NCBI GenBank assembly: GCA_000002445.1
Contig: CM000208.1
Span: 2,784,001-2,848,000 of the forward strand
Direction of reading: 5' to 3'
DNA length: 64,000 nt
Origin: Trypanosoma brucei
Taxonomy: Eukaryota
The notes beneath the pieces were generated by a model that was given only the letters and a program-made list of their open reading frames with translations, searched no databases and had not been told where the DNA came from. Position 1 is the first letter of the stretch, and each line of letters starts with the position of its first letter. A program made the position numbers and the translations under genes. Shown piece after piece: positions 18,305-25,114 of this stretch.

Positions 18305-21269
18305 AAAAATAAAATAAAATAGTTGATAGGAGTTGTTGGACAGTCTGAGTAAATGGAGGAAAAGAGAAAAGAGAAAAGGGGAATAGTGGGTGGTGTGTGA
18401 CGAAATGTAGAGATGCATCACCGCAGTGAGAGTGACGTCGAATTGGCGTCCAATTTCCATATGAGGTCACGACGTTCCTCACAAGCATGAATAAAATGAA
18501 ATGAAGAAGGAAATTTTTTTTTTTTTAAAAAAGAAAAATCAAAACCAATATCAATTAATAAATAAATATATTGTGTCCCCTCCATTTCCCTTGGTTGTCT
18601 GCTCTTTGTTGTTTTTTTTCTTCATTTTACTATTCATTTTATTTCTCTCCATCATGTCACATAATCCCTCAAGCTGTGACCCAGAGGAGGGAAATGAATA
18701 TCAAGAGGAAAAGATATTATATTTCAACATGTTTTGATGTAGAGAAGGATTGCACGTGTGCGTACACTTGAAGGCGTTTGAAGGAAAGGGAGAAGAAAGA
18801 GGGAGGGGAGAAGGAATTGTGATGGAAAGAAAGAGAAAAAAAAAAGAAAAAAAGAAAAAAAAGGGGGGAAAAAAGAGTAAAGGAAGAGCAAAACTAAGAC
18901 ATGCAAGAAAAAATAATATTAAATGAAGAAAGAAGAAACGAAAAAAAAAATCATATTGAATAATTGAGAGGGAATGATTGTTGTTGTTGTTGTTTTTTTT
19001 TTTTGCTCCCTCTTGTATTTTGTAAAGAAAGAAAAGAAAAAGATACGCGTACATCCCCTTTTCTCTTCATTTTCTTTTTTTCTTTTTTTTTTCCCCCTTT
19101 TGTCTCCTTTCCTACGTGAAGATTAATGCAAAAAAGATATTTTGTTGTTTTTTTCACCTTTTATCCCTCCTGAACTCTCGTTACTTCTGTTATATTTTTA
19201 CGATTTATTACTTCTCACTAGTGTTTTGGATGTTGGTGTTGGTTGAGTGTTCTTTGTGTTTTGTTTTTGTTTTTTATTATTTTGTTTCGGATTCTTATTT
19301 GTTTGTTTTATTTTCAATTTTTTTTTGTTGTGATTTAGCGTAGTGACGAGTGAATGGGACGAGAAGAAATACGATAGTGAATAGGAGAGTTTTTGTTCGT
19401 TTGTTTTTTGTTTTTGTTTTTGTGAAAAAGAGAAGTAAAGAAGGAGGAACCGAGCGGAGAAAAAATGGTGGGATGAAAGACAAAGGAATAAAAAATAAAA
19501 AAATAGGAGTGATGACGATGACTATGATGATGATGAATGGTAGAGAGAATAAATTTTATTATGTTGAGGAGTGTAGTGAAAAGGTGACAAAGAATTTTTG
19601 AAAAGGAAGAGATTTTGCAGGTGGAAAAAAGGGAGACGTTTAGTTTGAAAATGAAAGTAAATTGGCTGAATGGGGAGAGGGATTTTTTTAAAAAAAAAAT
19701 TAGTAATAATAATAATAAAATCAGCGAATAGACGAGTGGAATGGCAAAATAACAATATCAACAACAACAGATTAAAAGGAAGGAAAAAAAAAAATAGAAC
19801 AGAGTAAAAGTAAAAAATGCCAACAGAGCACTACTACCACCGAAATCAAGAACAAAACAAATCAATACAGAAAAAAAAAATACGGAAGAAAGACGATGAG
19901 AAACGAGGGAATTCAGAAAAAGAAAAAAAAATAAGAGAGATAAGGAAGGGGGAGCGCACGAAGATGTGAATGAGTGACAAAGCAAATATAACCAAAAGCA
20001 GTTATTATTATTATTATTTGTTATTGTTATTGTTGTTATTGTTAGTAGACAAGAAGGATGAGTGATAACGACGTACCCATTTTTGTCTGTGTTTATGTTT
20101 GTGCTTGTGTGTTTTTTTTTCCCTGTGATTTGCGAAGAATATAAATATATAAATATATATAAGTATATATAAATAAATATATATAAATATTTACTTATAC
20201 AATATGTGTTCGTCTGTGATGTTTTTGTGTGTGTGTCTATGAGCTGCGAAAAGAATGATGAATGAAAATTTATTTCTTTTAAACACTATGTTTGAAGGAA
20301 GTAAAGGCTATAGATTGTTTGACATCGGTGGTGTGAAAGGGGACAAAAAAGCAAAGAGAGGTCAGCTTTTTGTGTTTCATTTGTTTTCTTTTTTCTCCTT
20401 TTTCTCCTTTTTTTCTTTTTTTCTTTTTTTTAAAATCACCATTGAGGTGAACAGGTAGAGGTGTTGTAGAGATATGAAAGTGGATATAACGACGCAGAGC
20501 GTGGCGTAGACAAAAATTAAAAAAAATTAAAATTAATGCAGAAGAAAGGAGGAAAAGGTGTGTGTGGCGGATCTGGAAGGGGAAGTGACGAAAAAAAAAA
20601 ATGAAAGTGAGAAGCATTCACTATCTCCATTTTTTCCTCTTTATTTTGTTGTGCCCGGGAATTTCTTTTTTTTTTTTCTTATTGGACCTTTAGGGAGGAC
20701 GTTGATGCGTTCTTCTCCAATTTTTGTCTTACTTCTTTTATTTTATTTTATTTTATTTCTTGTTTGTAGTGCTGTGCTTTTTCTTCGTCTTCTCTTTGTC
20801 TGTTTTTCTTTTTCTTTTTTTGTTTTCATGTGCTGTTTGTGCCCCTTCTTACATTTTTTTTTCTACACGCAAATCCATTTGATGGACTTGCTTCTGTGGA
20901 GCTGGGGAATCTCAGTTTCGAAATATACAATAATAATAATATTATTATTATTACATTAATATAAATATTATTATTAGTGGTAATATTTATTGTAGTGTTC
21001 GTATCTTTCCTTTTCTCCTTCCATTCCATTCCATTCCATTCCCTTTTCTTTTTCTTCTCCCTTCTCCCTTTTCCCTCTCCTTTCTTTCCTTCCTTATGTT
21101 CTTTTTCTTTTTCCTTCTGATTTTCCTCATTTTACATGTTGACCTTCCGTTGCAGAGGAGTATTTATTATGCTTGTGTGTATGTGAGGGGGGAAAAAAAG
21201 AAGTGAAAAGAAATGTGAAGGTGAAGGCCGAGTGGGATGCATCGGGACGATTGTTATATTTGCTTCATT

Positions 21270-21360
21270 ATATATTATATATTATATATATATATATATA
21301 TTATTATTATTATTATTACCATTATTGTTAATATTAATATTATTATTACTACTACTATTA
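21270..21360. repeat. compound AT-rich microsatellite ((TATAT)n, (TA)n, (ATT)n, (TAT)n)
   Basis: tatatattatatattatatatatatatatatattattattattattacc... read directly. Confidence 0.85.
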
Positions 21361-23400
21361 CTATTTGCCCGCTCCTTCTCTTCTCTTCTCTTCTTTAATT
21401 AATTTACATTTACTCTTCTCCATTCCCCACCCTAACTTTTTTTGGGCGTCGTTGCGTCTCCTCTGTGCCCCCGATGCCTAAGGTTGCTTTTTGTATTTAT
21501 TTCGCTGTTGTGTTTTCTTGTTTGTTCTTGCGCACGTGTTGGAATGTACATGATTTTCTAAATTAAGAGAGAGAGAAAGAGGAAAAACGAAATATTCGCA
21601 AATGATTATATATTAATATATATATATATATATATAAATATGTGCATGTATATGTTTTTTTTTTGGTTCTATCTACGTGTGTTCGCGTCTGTGTTTGTGT
21701 TTGTCTGTTTGTGTTTCTTTCTCTACGAGGAAAGGCAGTAACTGAAAGGAATGCGTGTAGGATACCTGGGGAAATGGAGGAGAGGGATTTTGTGTTTGTT
21801 CGCCTGTGTGGAGGAATGAATAAAAAATTCTTTTTTTTTTTAAAAAAAAGAAAGGCGACGCAAAAAGAAGAGGGACGGTCGTGGGAGAGGAAAAGAGTTA
21901 TATGAAGTGGGTCATTTAAAAGGAGCAAAAAGAAGAAAAAAAATTAAGGAAAACAAATCAAAACGAATTAAAAAAACAACAACAACAACAGGGTAAATGG
22001 ATGAAAGGGGAGGGGGGAAAAAAAAGGGGGAGAGGAGTAAAGGAGCGAAACGGGAGAAGGGGATCGGTAGAAGAATGACAGGAATATATATTTTATATAT
22101 TATTTAGCTGTGGAGAAATTGAAGTTTAGGGGTGATGAAATGAAAAATGGGAATTAGTGCGTATATATATATATGTGTGTGTGTGTGTGCGCGCGTATGT
22201 ATGGCTATTGTGCAGTACATTTACGAGTTATTTAAACATATGTATCCATCAGGAATAATTGAACATGAAGACAAACAACCAAACAAGCAAATGAAACGGA
22301 ATAGATAAATGAGAAGCAGAAGGTGAACATGATGGAGTTTTGAGTGTGTGTGTGTGTGAGTGTGTGCATTTGGTGGTGTAAGAGTAGGAGGAGGGAAGTG
22401 AGGCGTTAGTATAATGAGGAAAAAGATGAGAAAGCATTTTCTTCTTTTCTTCTTCTGAAAAAAATAAAAAGGAGAAGAGGGGGAATGTCAACTGGGAAGG
22501 GAAGACAAGGCAAAGTGCGAATCCTTCCCCGCATGCCTGTTTTATTCTTTCCTTTTCTTTTGTTTTTTAGCAATTGCTGCTGCTGAGGGCCCACTGTTTT
22601 TGTTTATTCCTTTTGTTATACGCCCTTCATCTTCTCTTTTGTTTCTCTTTCCCTCCTTCTTCACCTTCACCCTTGTTTTTTTTCTTTTTCTATTTCATTC
22701 ACTTTCCTTCTTCTATCAGTCACCATATATACACGTGTGAGTTTGTTAGCGGTACCGTCTTGTTACTACTTTTATTTGGCTGCTTTTTTTGTTTTCACTT
22801 TGTTTTTCTGTGGCATTGAACACCATTGTCAAAACCTGCCTCCAGTGATGTTCATTCATTCATTCATTCAACTATTTTATTTGATTTTATTTTTGCGCAT
22901 GTGTACTCCTGCCATCTTTCCATCCATTCCAGTCATCCTGCGTAGTTGAACTTTCCCCTCGTTCCTTTTTTTTTTCTATTTTTTTGTAAAATATTTACAT
23001 TAGTTATAAAAGTGTTGATATGTCCATTGTAGCGCACTCGTAACACCTTCCGTGCATTCAGCATTTGCCCATACATTTTAATTTGCTTATCAATATATGA
23101 ATATATAAATATATAAATATATATATATTTATGTGCATTGATAATTGCACGCGTTGGGAGAAGGAAATGCGGGGCACGTGGTGGCAACGGCAAATGATTT
23201 CGCAAGGATTGACAGCAGATATTTGTGTAATGTCCCCCCCCCAAAAAAAAATAATAGTAATAAATAAATAACAAAAAACAGAAAGAAAAAAAGAACAACA
23301 ACAAAAAGAAACAAAACCGGGTGTAGAAAAATGTACACACACAAAAAAAAAAGAAAAGAGATTATGAATTAAAGGCGTGCAGGAAATTCTTTGTAAAGAA

Positions 23401-24001: not shown

Positions 24002-24521
24002 AGTATAATATGAGGGTTATTATTCAGTATTAGTAAGGAAAAAGAAAAGAAAAATGTTGTAGGTATGAACTGAAACTAGGATGCAGAGAAGAAGAAGAAG
24101 GAGGGGAAGGGGGCAAAAGAAAAAAAAATAAAAATAAAAATAGAAACGCATCTGCACATGGCTCGGAATGGGGCACGAGCGTGTTAAGGTGAATTAAAAC
24201 AAGTCTCAAGTAATGAAGCGAACCACTTATAGTGTCCCACGGTAGTGATATCTTTTGTAAGAGTATTTTATTGCGTACGATTCGTTCGCATCGGAGTCGT
24301 AGTCACAAGTGCCCTCCTTTTTTTTATAAAAAAAACCTTTGTATCGACTACATCCTGAAAGGGGAAACACACTGAAAAGTGCAATTATCAATAAAAGGAA
24401 GAGGACTGGGGATGCAAAACAAAAAAAAAACGGATGGAAAGGTAGGGGGTAAGGAAGTTACATATCAATGTTCAATGAAACCAGTGAAATGGGGATAGGT
24501 CATGTACGCACGCATATGCAT

Positions 24522-24542
24522 ATATATATATATATATATATA
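24522..24542. repeat. (TA)n microsatellite
   Basis: atatatatatatatatatatat, read directly. Confidence 0.9.
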
Positions 24543-25114
24543 TGGTAACTTTGTCTGTGCGTGTTTGCATGTTTGTATACCTGTGAAAGTCCTCTTGAAG
24601 ACGGTGACAATACCAGCGAGTATGAGAGACGGTTGGTCTTTAAGAGAAGAAACGCGACGCGTGTTACCTTTTTTATTTTTCCTTCATCTTGGTATCTTTT
24701 CTGTCTTATTGTGAGTTTTGGGTGTTTTTTCCTTTGTTTATGTCTCACTGTTTGATACCCAGTGTCGATAAATATTTTTCACGTTCGCCTGTTGTGCTCC
24801 ACCATTCGATCATTTATTTGTTATTGACATCACTATTATTATTATTATTATTGTGACTCTCTGTATTGTGTTGTTTTCGTTTGGTGGCAGGTCTCCCCGC
24901 CCAAGGACATAGTGTTGGTGACAGAGTGTTACTGGACGCACATAAACACCTAACAGGAAGTAAAGGAGGCTTGGAAACGAAAGAAAAAAAAACATAAGTA
25001 GATAAATAATTGAAATAGGTAAAAAGGACGGGACGGAATACCTTCAGCACTTTGAGAGAGAAAAAAGTGCCCTAACGGACCAAAAAGGGGAGGAGAAGCG
25101 AAGTCAAACGGGGA

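What the first reader, a model, noticed from the sequence alone, without database searches (positions are those of the whole stretch)
18305..25114. About 6.8-kb gene desert of alternating polypurine/polypyrimidine blocks inside an otherwise dense PTU
Elsewhere in this window the intergenic spacers are 0.3-1.7 kb. Between the PUF gene and the next large gene lie 6.8 kb with strong strand compositional skew. GA/A-rich blocks on the + strand (about 18.3-20.6, 21.56-22.1, 22.25-22.5 and 23.24-23.4 kb) alternate with C/T-rich blocks (about 20.6-21.1, 21.4-21.56 and 22.5-23.0 kb), interspersed with (TA)n, (ATT)n, (TAA)n, (CATT)4 and (CCATT)4. Each long C/T-rich block could act as an additional SL trans-splicing acceptor and polyadenylation signal. 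That would allow several discrete non-coding transcripts or an unusually long, structured PUF 3' UTR. Alternating polypurine/polypyrimidine tracts could in principle form triplex or H-DNA. That idea is speculative.
Basis: partly seen in the sequence, partly recalled or inferred. Interest (0 to 1): 0.55.

Follow-up and report, generated by a model that had tools for sequence, protein, structure and literature searches.

The report
Long PUF6 3' UTR plus small gene

Summary
The window is T. brucei brucei TREU927 chromosome 10. The compositional observation holds. The region 18305-25114 is low in G+C (35% against 44% in other spacers). It consists of alternating purine and pyrimidine blocks far beyond chance (z about 31), and it holds 11 of the 12 pure R/Y runs of 25 nt or more in the 64 kb.

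It is not a gene desert. A 129-aa gene at 23612-24001 (by inference Tb927.10.11770, SDH3-like by database names) is conserved across kinetoplastids and has RNA-seq reads. A published table gives the Tb927.10.11760 (PUF6) UTR as 4,543 nt, about 18305-22847; the paper's annotation was informed by nanopore RNA reads.

Long 3' UTRs dense in both A-rich polypurine and U-rich polypyrimidine tracts are a described class in T. brucei. They are over-represented among mRNA-binding proteins. Their internal polypyrimidine tracts are reported to be kept silent by DRBD18.

One result here goes beyond that. The PUF6-downstream spacer is the longest in its neighbourhood in all ten kinetoplastid lineages sampled (1.0-8.5 kb). 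Yet its sequence is not conserved, and within T. brucei it evolves about four times faster than its neighbours. Rfam finds no RNA family, and there is no tRNA and no conserved hidden ORF.

Verdict: real, explained, already known; low interest.

The parts
15773..18304 (+). PUF6 coding sequence (843 aa; by inference Tb927.10.11760)
   Evidence: Pfam PUF repeats, E 6e-58. Exact match to EAN78555/XP_823383, and the identical protein is named 'pumilio/PUF RNA binding protein 6' in T. equiperdum. The gene ID is named PUF6. The link from this ORF to that ID rests on the T. equiperdum name and on UTR starts that agree to within 4 nt.
18305..22847 (+). Annotated PUF6 3' UTR (4,543 nt). It is low in G+C and made of alternating A/G-rich and U/C-rich tracts and microsatellites.
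   Evidence: UTR_Start/UTR_End 2871957-2876499 for Tb927.10.11760 in Trenaman et al. 2024, Supplementary Data 1 (method). The window offset of about 2853652 (+/-4 nt) was cross-checked with the Tb927.10.11780 UTR start. Composition.
18766..18888 (+). Longest polypurine tract: 123 nt at 90% purine or more, with a pure 54-nt run at 18824-18877
   Evidence: In the minimum-energy fold it pairs with the pyrimidine tract at 19044-19113, with a 19-bp helix 18859-18877 / 19083-19101. Inverted repeat I17 is 93% complementary.
20986..21118 (+). Longest polypyrimidine tract: 133 nt at 90% pyrimidine or more, with a pure 57-nt run at 21039-21095 and the first AG at 21154. It is a candidate cryptic trans-splicing signal inside the UTR.
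   Evidence: Seven such tracts of 30 nt or more lie inside the annotated UTR (19044-19113, 20362-20431, 20772-20821, 20986-21118, 21361-21396, 22536-22568, 22619-22691).
22848..23611 (+). Processing zone and 5' UTR of the small gene. It holds a pyrimidine block at 22851-22990, an A-rich tract at about 23238-23361, and a pyrimidine tract at 23400-23480 followed by AG at 23493-23494 and 23500-23501 (predicted spliced-leader acceptor).
   Evidence: Sequence read directly. The MPRA fragment covering window about 22057-23427 is flagged 'has_DS_splice_site = no', so the annotated acceptor lies beyond about 23427. Assigning 22848-23493 to a transcript is inference.
23612..24001 (+). Small conserved protein gene, 129 aa (EAN78556; by inference Tb927.10.11770). 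Some databases name its homologs 'succinate dehydrogenase cytochrome b subunit'.
   Evidence: Exact protein is called in three named assemblies. It is listed as 'hypothetical protein, conserved'. There are 24 homologs from Trypanosoma to Leishmania, Angomonas and Strigomonas, E down to 1e-47. No indels and 0.5% substitutions between T. brucei subspecies. Tb927.10.11770 has RNA-seq reads in Fadda et al. 2014. No Pfam or PDB sequence match.
24002..25114 (+). Ordinary 1.1-kb spacer: 3' UTR of the small gene, a pyrimidine-rich stretch at about 24660-24870, and the 5' UTR of the next gene
   Evidence: Its length is within the range of other spacers. Divergence between subspecies is 0.6-0.7%, like the other spacers.
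25115..28606 (+). Downstream 1,163-aa gene (EAN78557, Tb927.10.11780), of unknown function
   Evidence: Its listed UTR, 2882255-2882866, fixes the coordinate mapping.

Best explanation
The region is not one feature. It contains three parts: (i) the roughly 4.5-kb 3' UTR of the PUF6 (Tb927.10.11760) mRNA, about 18305-22847, perhaps with longer isoforms reaching about 23.3 kb; (ii) a small conserved protein gene (129 aa, 23612-24001) with its own UTRs; (iii) an ordinary 1.1-kb spacer before Tb927.10.11780.

The PUF6 UTR belongs to the described class of multi-kilobase 3' UTRs of trypanosome RNA-binding-protein mRNAs. These are dense in both A-rich polypurine and U-rich polypyrimidine tracts.

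The mechanism is taken from the published model and is not shown for this UTR. The polypurine tracts promote translation in a dose-dependent way. The polypyrimidine tracts can base-pair with them and mask them. The many internal pyrimidine tracts followed by AG are potential trans-splicing and polyadenylation signals that must be kept silent, reportedly by DRBD18, so that the full-length mRNA is made. The sheer length may also hold PUF6 mRNA abundance low.

The tracts and microsatellites evolve quickly by slippage. What is conserved is the exceptional length, and within Trypanosoma the blocky composition, not the sequence.
For: Shown here.
- Identity of the locus and genes.
- The small gene is conserved.
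- No other credible ORF: all are low-complexity, and six-frame pieces give only two marginal hits between T. vivax and L. donovani at E<1e-3 and none for T. brucei.
- No tRNA and no Rfam family.
- The R/Y block structure has z about 31.
- A-rich purine 9-mers occur at 9.2/kb, against 0-8.1/kb in the other spacers of 300 nt or more.
- Seven pyrimidine tracts of 30 nt or more lie inside the UTR; each pure pyrimidine run of 18 nt or more there has an AG within 131 nt.
- Five of six 800-nt UTR windows fold more stably than shuffles (z -2.1 to -6.0), while CDS controls give 0 to +1.3. Many predicted helices join purine tracts to pyrimidine tracts.
- The PUF6-downstream spacer is the longest in its locus in all ten lineages examined. 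Sizes are T. brucei 5307, T. cruzi 4513, T. melophagium 4955, T. vivax at least 5276, L. donovani 8461, Leishmania sp. Namibia 8009, Leptomonas 5001, Phytomonas 3215, and two compact kinetoplastids at about 1.5 and 1.0-1.2 kb. Neighbouring spacers in the same loci are generally 4-10 times shorter by median.

From the literature.
- A single 4,543-nt UTR is listed for Tb927.10.11760. The paper's annotation was informed by nanopore RNA reads.
- The median T. brucei 3' UTR is about 400 nt, and RNA-binding-protein mRNAs often have UTRs of several kb (PMC6597758).
- Long UTRs rich in both tract types are over-represented for 'mRNA binding', and a masking model has been proposed (PMC11405848).
- DRBD18 is proposed to suppress internal pyrimidine tracts (PMC9380746).
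Against: I did not see the reads themselves, only a published annotation.

The annotated UTR ends about 640 nt before the predicted acceptor of the small gene. The stretch 22848-23493 is therefore unassigned, and alternative poly(A) or splice sites are likely.

Within T. brucei the UTR is the fastest-evolving part of the locus. It shows 2.2-2.4% substitutions and 11-12 indel events per kb, against 0.5-1.0% and 0-5 per kb elsewhere. That argues against dense sequence-specific elements.

PUF6 is about twofold higher in procyclic than in bloodstream forms by proteomics and ribosome profiling. It therefore does not fit the 'unmasked in bloodstream forms' cohort.

The one MPRA fragment overlapping the UTR end gave only a weak positive signal (log2FC 1.2, FDR 0.07).

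Folding z-scores are in silico only and are partly driven by (TA)n palindromes.
Confidence: 0.85

Rival explanations
1. The 5.3 kb holds one or more independent long non-coding RNAs. These would be trans-spliced at internal pyrimidine tracts and polyadenylated, with functions of their own, instead of or in addition to a single PUF6 UTR.
For: At least seven internal pyrimidine tracts with downstream AG have the anatomy of processing signals. After DRBD18 depletion, trans-spliced polyadenylated RNAs made only of downstream 3'-UTR sequence appear for other long UTRs. lncRNA catalogues have been published for T. brucei, but their locus tables could not be read.
Against: The published table lists one continuous UTR. 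No Rfam family matches. There is no sequence conservation even with T. vivax, and divergence within T. brucei is high. The nanopore lncRNA paper's held supplement does not mention the flanking genes.
Confidence: 0.15
2. The spacer is functionally inert. It would be neutral accumulation of microsatellites and slippage-prone homopurine/homopyrimidine tracts downstream of PUF6, transcribed as UTR only because the next splice site is far away.
For: It has the highest substitution and indel rate in the locus. There are no conserved islands, and the longest invariant run among three strains is 180 nt. There is no cross-species similarity. The T. brucei UTR has no PUF recognition motif.
Against: The spacer is the longest in its neighbourhood in all ten kinetoplastid lineages examined, including two very compact genomes. 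This is hard to explain without selection on length or composition. Published reporter data tie polypurine-tract dosage and UTR length to expression.
Confidence: 0.2
3. The homopurine/homopyrimidine mirror repeats act at the DNA level. As H-DNA or triplexes they would slow RNA polymerase II or mark chromatin or a replication feature inside the polycistronic unit.
For: Ten pure tracts of 25-57 nt have mirror arms of 10-17 nt. Eleven of the 12 such tracts in the window are here.
Against: There is no evidence of any strand switch or large-period tandem repeat in the region. The same tracts are explained at the RNA level by published data. The blockiness is weak in Leishmaniinae and Phytomonas, although the long spacer persists there.
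Confidence: 0.04

Closest known systems
Long 3' UTRs of T. brucei RNA-binding-protein and kinase mRNAs that are rich in both polypurine and polypyrimidine tracts (Trenaman et al. 2024, PMC11405848; Clayton 2019, PMC6597758). Examples are RBP10 (>7 kb), ZC3H20-22 (>4 kb) and DRBD12.
   Same: It lies downstream of an RNA-binding-protein gene. It is 4.5 kb long, against a median of about 400 nt. It is dense in A-rich purine and U-rich pyrimidine tracts, and predicted purine-pyrimidine pairing is present. The UTR itself appears in the published data set.
   Different: PUF6 is not up-regulated in bloodstream forms; it is about twofold higher in procyclics. The developmental 'unmasking' model proposed for that cohort is therefore not obviously applicable. 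No functional dissection of this UTR exists.
DRBD18-dependent suppression of internal processing signals in long 3' UTRs (Bishola Tshitenge & Clayton 2022, PMC9380746)
   Same: It is a long UTR with many internal polypyrimidine tracts followed by AG.
   Different: Binding of DRBD18 to PUF6 mRNA, or altered PUF6 processing after DRBD18 RNAi, could not be checked because the supplements are not held.
Trypanosome lncRNAs such as grumpy (Guegan et al. 2022, PMC9200285)
   Same: It is non-coding, Pol II-transcribed sequence next to an RNA-binding-protein gene.
   Different: No snoRNA-like element, no Rfam hit and no evidence of a separate transcript here.

Membership tests
Long pPuT/pPyT-rich 3' UTR of an RNA-binding-protein mRNA (T. 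brucei) | Starts at the stop codon of an RNA-binding-protein gene, on the same strand, inside a polycistronic unit | tested here: met
   The PUF domain protein ends at 18304 and all neighbouring genes are on the + strand.
Long pPuT/pPyT-rich 3' UTR of an RNA-binding-protein mRNA (T. brucei) | Transcript evidence for one continuous 3' UTR longer than 2 kb | tested here: met
   This rests on a published annotation, not on reads seen here. The Tb927.10.11760 UTR is listed as 2871957-2876499, 4,543 nt. The paper's annotation was informed by nanopore RNA reads.
Long pPuT/pPyT-rich 3' UTR of an RNA-binding-protein mRNA (T. brucei) | High density of both A-rich polypurine and U-rich polypyrimidine motifs (published cut-off: more than 20 per kb each, by FIMO with the authors' motifs) | tested here: inconclusive
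   With a stricter proxy of my own (non-overlapping pure 9-mers with at least 6 A or 6 U) the UTR has 9.2 and 8.6 per kb. Other spacers have 0-8.1 and 0-9.1 per kb. The authors' motif matrices were not available.
Long pPuT/pPyT-rich 3' UTR of an RNA-binding-protein mRNA (T. brucei) | Bloodstream-form up-translation (defines the 44-gene cohort for which 'unmasking' was proposed) | tested here: not met
   PUF6 bloodstream/procyclic ratios are 0.49-0.6 by ribosome profiling and 0.51-0.52 by SILAC (Clayton 2019, Table S1). It belongs to the general long-UTR class, not to this sub-cohort.
DRBD18-protected 3' UTRs | Internal polypyrimidine tracts with a downstream AG inside the UTR | tested here: met
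   Seven tracts of 30 nt or more; each pure run of 18 nt or more has an AG 11-131 nt downstream.
DRBD18-protected 3' UTRs | DRBD18 binding, and shortened mRNA after DRBD18 depletion | not testable with these tools
   Supplementary tables of PMC9380746 and PMC11260167 are not held.
snoRNA / small-RNA cluster or other structured ncRNA | Match to a curated RNA family, or tandemly repeated units typical of trypanosome snoRNA clusters | tested here: not met
   Rfam gathering scan gave 0 hits. The E-value scan gave only sub-threshold miRNA-model hits on (TA)n. No repeats of large period. No tRNAs.
Gene desert (no genes) | Absence of any protein-coding gene | tested here: not met
   A conserved 129-aa gene lies at 23612-24001.
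H-DNA-forming mirror repeats | Homopurine/homopyrimidine tracts with mirror symmetry | tested here: met
   Ten tracts have mirror arms of 10-17 nt with at most 1 mismatch. This is sequence potential only.
H-DNA-forming mirror repeats | Triplex formation in vivo | not testable with these tools
   Needs chemical or enzymatic probing.

The most novel reading that the evidence does not exclude
Selection may act on the length and low-complexity composition of the PUF6 3' UTR, not on its sequence. The spacer after PUF6 is several-fold longer than its neighbours in every kinetoplastid lineage sampled. This holds from compact unidentified kinetoplastid genomes (about 1-1.5 kb against 0.01-0.46 kb) to Leishmania (8.5 kb). 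Meanwhile the sequence turns over completely between species and is hypervariable within T. brucei. This would point to an ancient, sequence-independent, length-based dosage control of a conserved repressor. Possible routes are slower or less efficient 3' processing, length-dependent decay, or bulk binding of low-specificity proteins.
Probability: 0.3. Interest if true: 0.5.

Novelty: already known. Interest (0 to 1): 0.18.

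Why it matters
It matters little for discovery. The UTR is annotated, and its class and proposed mechanism were published in 2019-2024. The check is still useful in three ways. It corrects the 'gene desert' label by locating a small conserved gene that is easy to miss. 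It shows that purine/pyrimidine blockiness is a practical signature of long regulatory UTRs in Trypanosoma. It also adds a comparative point: the relative length of the PUF6 UTR is conserved across kinetoplastids while its sequence is not. That makes PUF6 a clean test case for whether UTR length itself is a regulated trait in organisms that lack control of transcription at individual genes.

Tried and rejected
1. Structured or known ncRNA. Rfam found nothing at the E-value threshold on 17.5-26 kb or at gathering threshold on the whole window. The only hits were sub-threshold miRNA models on (TA)n. ARAGORN found no tRNAs.

2. Hidden protein genes. All other ORFs of 60 aa or more are low-complexity F/L/K-rich. 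The two extra ORFs called in the DAL972 assembly appear to correspond to low-complexity ORFs of different length in TREU927. Six-frame pieces of each species' spacer searched against the others gave no credible hits.

3. Sequence conservation. blastn of the T. brucei spacer against T. cruzi, T. theileri, Leishmania and T. vivax gave only short, non-collinear, low-complexity matches.

4. Autoregulation through PUF sites. The T. brucei UTR has no UGUANAUA, and UGUA is not enriched. There is modest enrichment in T. cruzi, T. melophagium, Phytomonas and Leptomonas only.

5. Dispersed or retroelement-like repeats. Only low-complexity families were found. A specific comparison with ingi/RIME/SIDER sequences was not possible, because no trypanosome repeat library is available.

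6. Locus-level lncRNA, DRBD18 and ZC3H28 data. The supplements are not held as text, or do not mention these genes.

7. PDB sequence search and Pfam for the 129-aa protein gave no match. The SDH3-like identity therefore rests on database names only.

8. The T. theileri spacer length (5,141) is unreliable because it contains 1,535 N. T. melophagium was used instead.

9. A first folding script timed out. It was repeated with 800-nt windows.

Full report
**Where the window comes from.** The 129-aa ORF at 23612-24001 is found as a called gene on chromosome 10 of T. b. gambiense DAL972 and in T. b. equiperdum. All five proteins tested, including the PUF protein and the ORF's two neighbours, match GenBank entries of T. 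brucei brucei TREU927 exactly (EAN78554-78559). The PUF protein (843 aa from the ATG at 15773) has PUF repeats by Pfam. The identical protein is named PUF6 in T. equiperdum. In the literature PUF6 is Tb927.10.11760.

**The observation.**
- No large ORF lies between 18305 and 25114. The other spacers in the window are 0.2-1.14 kb.
- The region has 34.7% G+C, against 44.3% in the other spacers.
- The alternation of purine-rich and pyrimidine-rich blocks is real. The standard deviation of purine content in 100-nt windows is 0.187, against 0.057 in dinucleotide-preserving shuffles (z about 31). It is twice that of the other spacers (0.098).
- Extreme windows make up 39%, against 5% in other spacers. 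Pure purine or pyrimidine runs of 15 nt or more cover 12.4% of the region, against 2.9%.
- Eleven of the 12 pure runs of 25 nt or more in the whole window are here.
- The named microsatellites are present.

The ORF at 23612-24001 (129 aa) is a real gene.
- It is called in several assemblies and labelled 'hypothetical protein, conserved'.
- It has 24 homologs across Trypanosoma, Leishmania, Leptomonas, Angomonas and Strigomonas, with E down to 1e-47. Several are named 'succinate dehydrogenase cytochrome b subunit' by their sources.
- It has no indels between T. brucei subspecies.
- By gene order it is Tb927.10.11770, which has RNA-seq reads in Fadda et al. 2014.
- Pfam and PDB sequence searches are silent, so the SDH3-like label is not verified here.
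- The 6.8 kb therefore splits into a 5,307-nt spacer, a 390-nt gene and an ordinary 1,113-nt spacer.

**What the 5.3 kb is.** Supplementary Data 1 of Trenaman et al. 2024 lists one UTR for Tb927.10.11760 at Tb927_10_v5.1:2871957-2876499, which is 4,543 nt. The UTR start listed for Tb927.10.11780 lies 10,298 nt further on, against 10,302 nt in the window. The mapping is therefore secure to about 4 nt, and the UTR corresponds to window 18305 to about 22847. That annotation was built from TriTrypDB models, and 4,703 UTRs were revised manually against nanopore direct-RNA reads filtered for spliced leader or poly(A).

Other checks agree:
- Nothing else is encoded. The remaining ORFs are low-complexity.
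- Six-frame comparison between species finds no credible conserved coding segment.
- Rfam and ARAGORN find nothing.
- There are no large-period repeats.

**How this fits what is known.** The median T. brucei 3' UTR is about 400 nt. RNA-binding-protein and kinase mRNAs 'often' have UTRs of several kb (Clayton 2019). Trenaman et al. reported several relevant results:
- A-rich polypurine tracts raise expression in a dose-dependent way.
- U-rich polypyrimidine tracts co-occur with them in long UTRs.
- UTRs longer than 2 kb that are dense in both are over-represented for mRNA-binding proteins.
- The two kinds of tract may pair, masking the purine tracts.

Bishola Tshitenge and Clayton proposed that DRBD18 stops internal polypyrimidine tracts in long UTRs from being used as trans-splicing and polyadenylation signals. 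On its depletion, shortened mRNAs and processed UTR-derived RNAs appear.

The PUF6 UTR has the anatomy of this class:
- There are 17 purine tracts of 30 nt or more in 18305-25114, 13 of them inside the annotated UTR. Of the 8 such pyrimidine tracts, 7 are inside the UTR.
- Each pure pyrimidine run of 18 nt or more inside the UTR has an AG within 131 nt.
- A-rich purine 9-mers occur at 9.2/kb, against 0-8.1/kb in other spacers.
- Five of six 800-nt windows fold more stably than shuffles (z -2.1 to -6.0), while CDS controls give 0 to +1.3.
- The predicted folds contain many purine-tract/pyrimidine-tract helices, for example 18859-18877 with 19083-19101.

One difference stands out. PUF6 is about twofold higher in procyclic than in bloodstream forms. 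It is therefore not in the bloodstream up-translated cohort for which unmasking was proposed. The only reporter fragment overlapping this UTR gave a weak positive signal (FDR 0.07).

**Comparative results.** The gene order PUF6, long spacer, small gene, roughly 1,100-aa gene, dynein light chain is conserved. The table gives the distance from the PUF6 stop codon to the small gene and the other spacers in the same locus.

| Lineage | PUF6-to-small-gene spacer (nt) | Other local spacers (kb) |
|---|---|---|
| T. brucei | 5,307 | 0.2-1.14 |
| T. cruzi | 4,513 | 0.2-0.8 |
| T. melophagium | 4,955 | 0.5-1.5 |
| T. vivax | at least 5,276 (contig ends) | 0.7-1.4 |
| L. donovani | 8,461 | 1.9-2.1 |
| Leishmania sp. 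Namibia | 8,009 | not measured |
| Leptomonas pyrrhocoris | 5,001 | 0.02-3.0 |
| Phytomonas | 3,215 | 0.5-1.35 |
| Compact kinetoplastid, SRR22803245 | about 1,500 | 0.14-0.46 |
| Compact kinetoplastid, SRR29674549 | about 1,000-1,200 | 0.01-0.29 |

 In every case it is the longest spacer in the locus. This refutes a lineage-specific expansion. T. theileri (5,141 nt, with 1,535 N) is excluded as unreliable.

The blocky purine/pyrimidine composition is shared by T. cruzi and T. melophagium (sd 0.19). It is weak in Leishmaniinae and Phytomonas.

The sequence itself is not conserved, even between T. brucei and T. vivax. Among three T. brucei subspecies it is the fastest-evolving part of the locus. 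It shows 2.2-2.4% substitutions and 11-12 indel events per kb, against 0.5-1.0% and 0-5 per kb elsewhere. Some of the excess may be misalignment in low-complexity sequence. No conserved island is longer than 180 nt. No canonical PUF site occurs in the T. brucei UTR.

**Open points.** The annotated UTR ends at about 22847, inside the 22.5-23.0 kb pyrimidine block. The best-looking acceptor for the small gene is the AG at 23493/23501, after the pyrimidine tract at 23400-23480. The MPRA table implies that the annotated splice site lies beyond about 23427. The roughly 640 nt in between is unassigned. It probably reflects alternative poly(A) or splice sites. Independent lncRNAs inside the UTR cannot be excluded, because the lncRNA locus tables were not readable. 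H-DNA potential exists by sequence but has no supporting evidence.

**Verdict.** The compositional observation is real and statistically strong, but the feature is already annotated and belongs to a described class. 'Gene desert' is wrong. 'Several discrete ncRNAs' is unsupported. The only element that goes beyond the literature I could read is the conservation of the spacer's relative length across kinetoplastids despite rapid sequence turnover.

Noticed in passing
window 40912-41829 (ORF 41244-42461 +): A 24-nt unit repeated 38 times (93% matches) encodes an (M/S)AAVPQPP octapeptide array at the N-terminal half of a 405-aa ORF. The region is strongly C/A-skewed (GC skew -0.33, AT skew +0.45), and spurious ORFs appear in several frames on both strands.
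   Followed up: partly
window 39128-39661 (inside ORF 37225-40602 +): A 78-nt unit repeated 6.8 times (97% matches) lies inside a 1,125-aa ORF. It is a 26-aa protein repeat.
   Followed up: no
window 18519, 19684, 21834, 23573 (also 61792): T-run/A-run junctions (T8 or longer followed by A6 or longer, self-complementary) occur at four places in the region and at only one elsewhere in the 64 kb. The expected count from whole-window shuffles is 0.01. The copy at 23565-23588 is polymorphic: the T10 run is reduced to T2 in the Logan contigs L005 and L006. The significance is unknown, and slippage is a possible cause.
   Followed up: partly
L003 (Logan ERR7929163 contig, 4,670 bp), join at L003 about 4121 = window 23581: In this contig the 129-aa gene is preceded by a 664-aa RRM-domain gene and 1.8 kb of unrelated sequence, instead of the PUF6 UTR. 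Similarity to the window starts only 31 nt before the ATG, inside an (AAGG)n tract. It is most likely an assembly chimera at the microsatellite, but a real rearrangement in that sample was not excluded.
   Followed up: partly
L007, L011, L013, L014 PUF6-downstream spacers: PUF-type motifs (UGUANAU) are modestly enriched on the sense strand of the PUF6-downstream spacer in T. cruzi, T. melophagium, Leptomonas and Phytomonas (p 0.00-0.01 against shuffles), but not in T. brucei or T. vivax. UGUA is 1.35-2.3 times more frequent on the sense than on the antisense strand in all species. This could hint at autoregulation in some lineages, or it could simply reflect strand composition.
   Followed up: partly
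L002 5044-5406 (-) and 8153-8500 (+) = window about 18.7-19.05 kb and 21.6-21.9 kb: The DAL972 assembly carries two extra called ORFs (120 and 115 aa) inside the PUF6 UTR. Their apparent TREU927 counterparts are low-complexity ORFs of different length (117 and 87 aa). They are very probably spurious calls.
   Followed up: partly
window 28607-29596: The GenBank protein series skips EAN78558 between the 1,163-aa gene (EAN78557) and the dynein light chain (EAN78559). A further small annotated gene may therefore lie in this 990-nt spacer.
   Followed up: no
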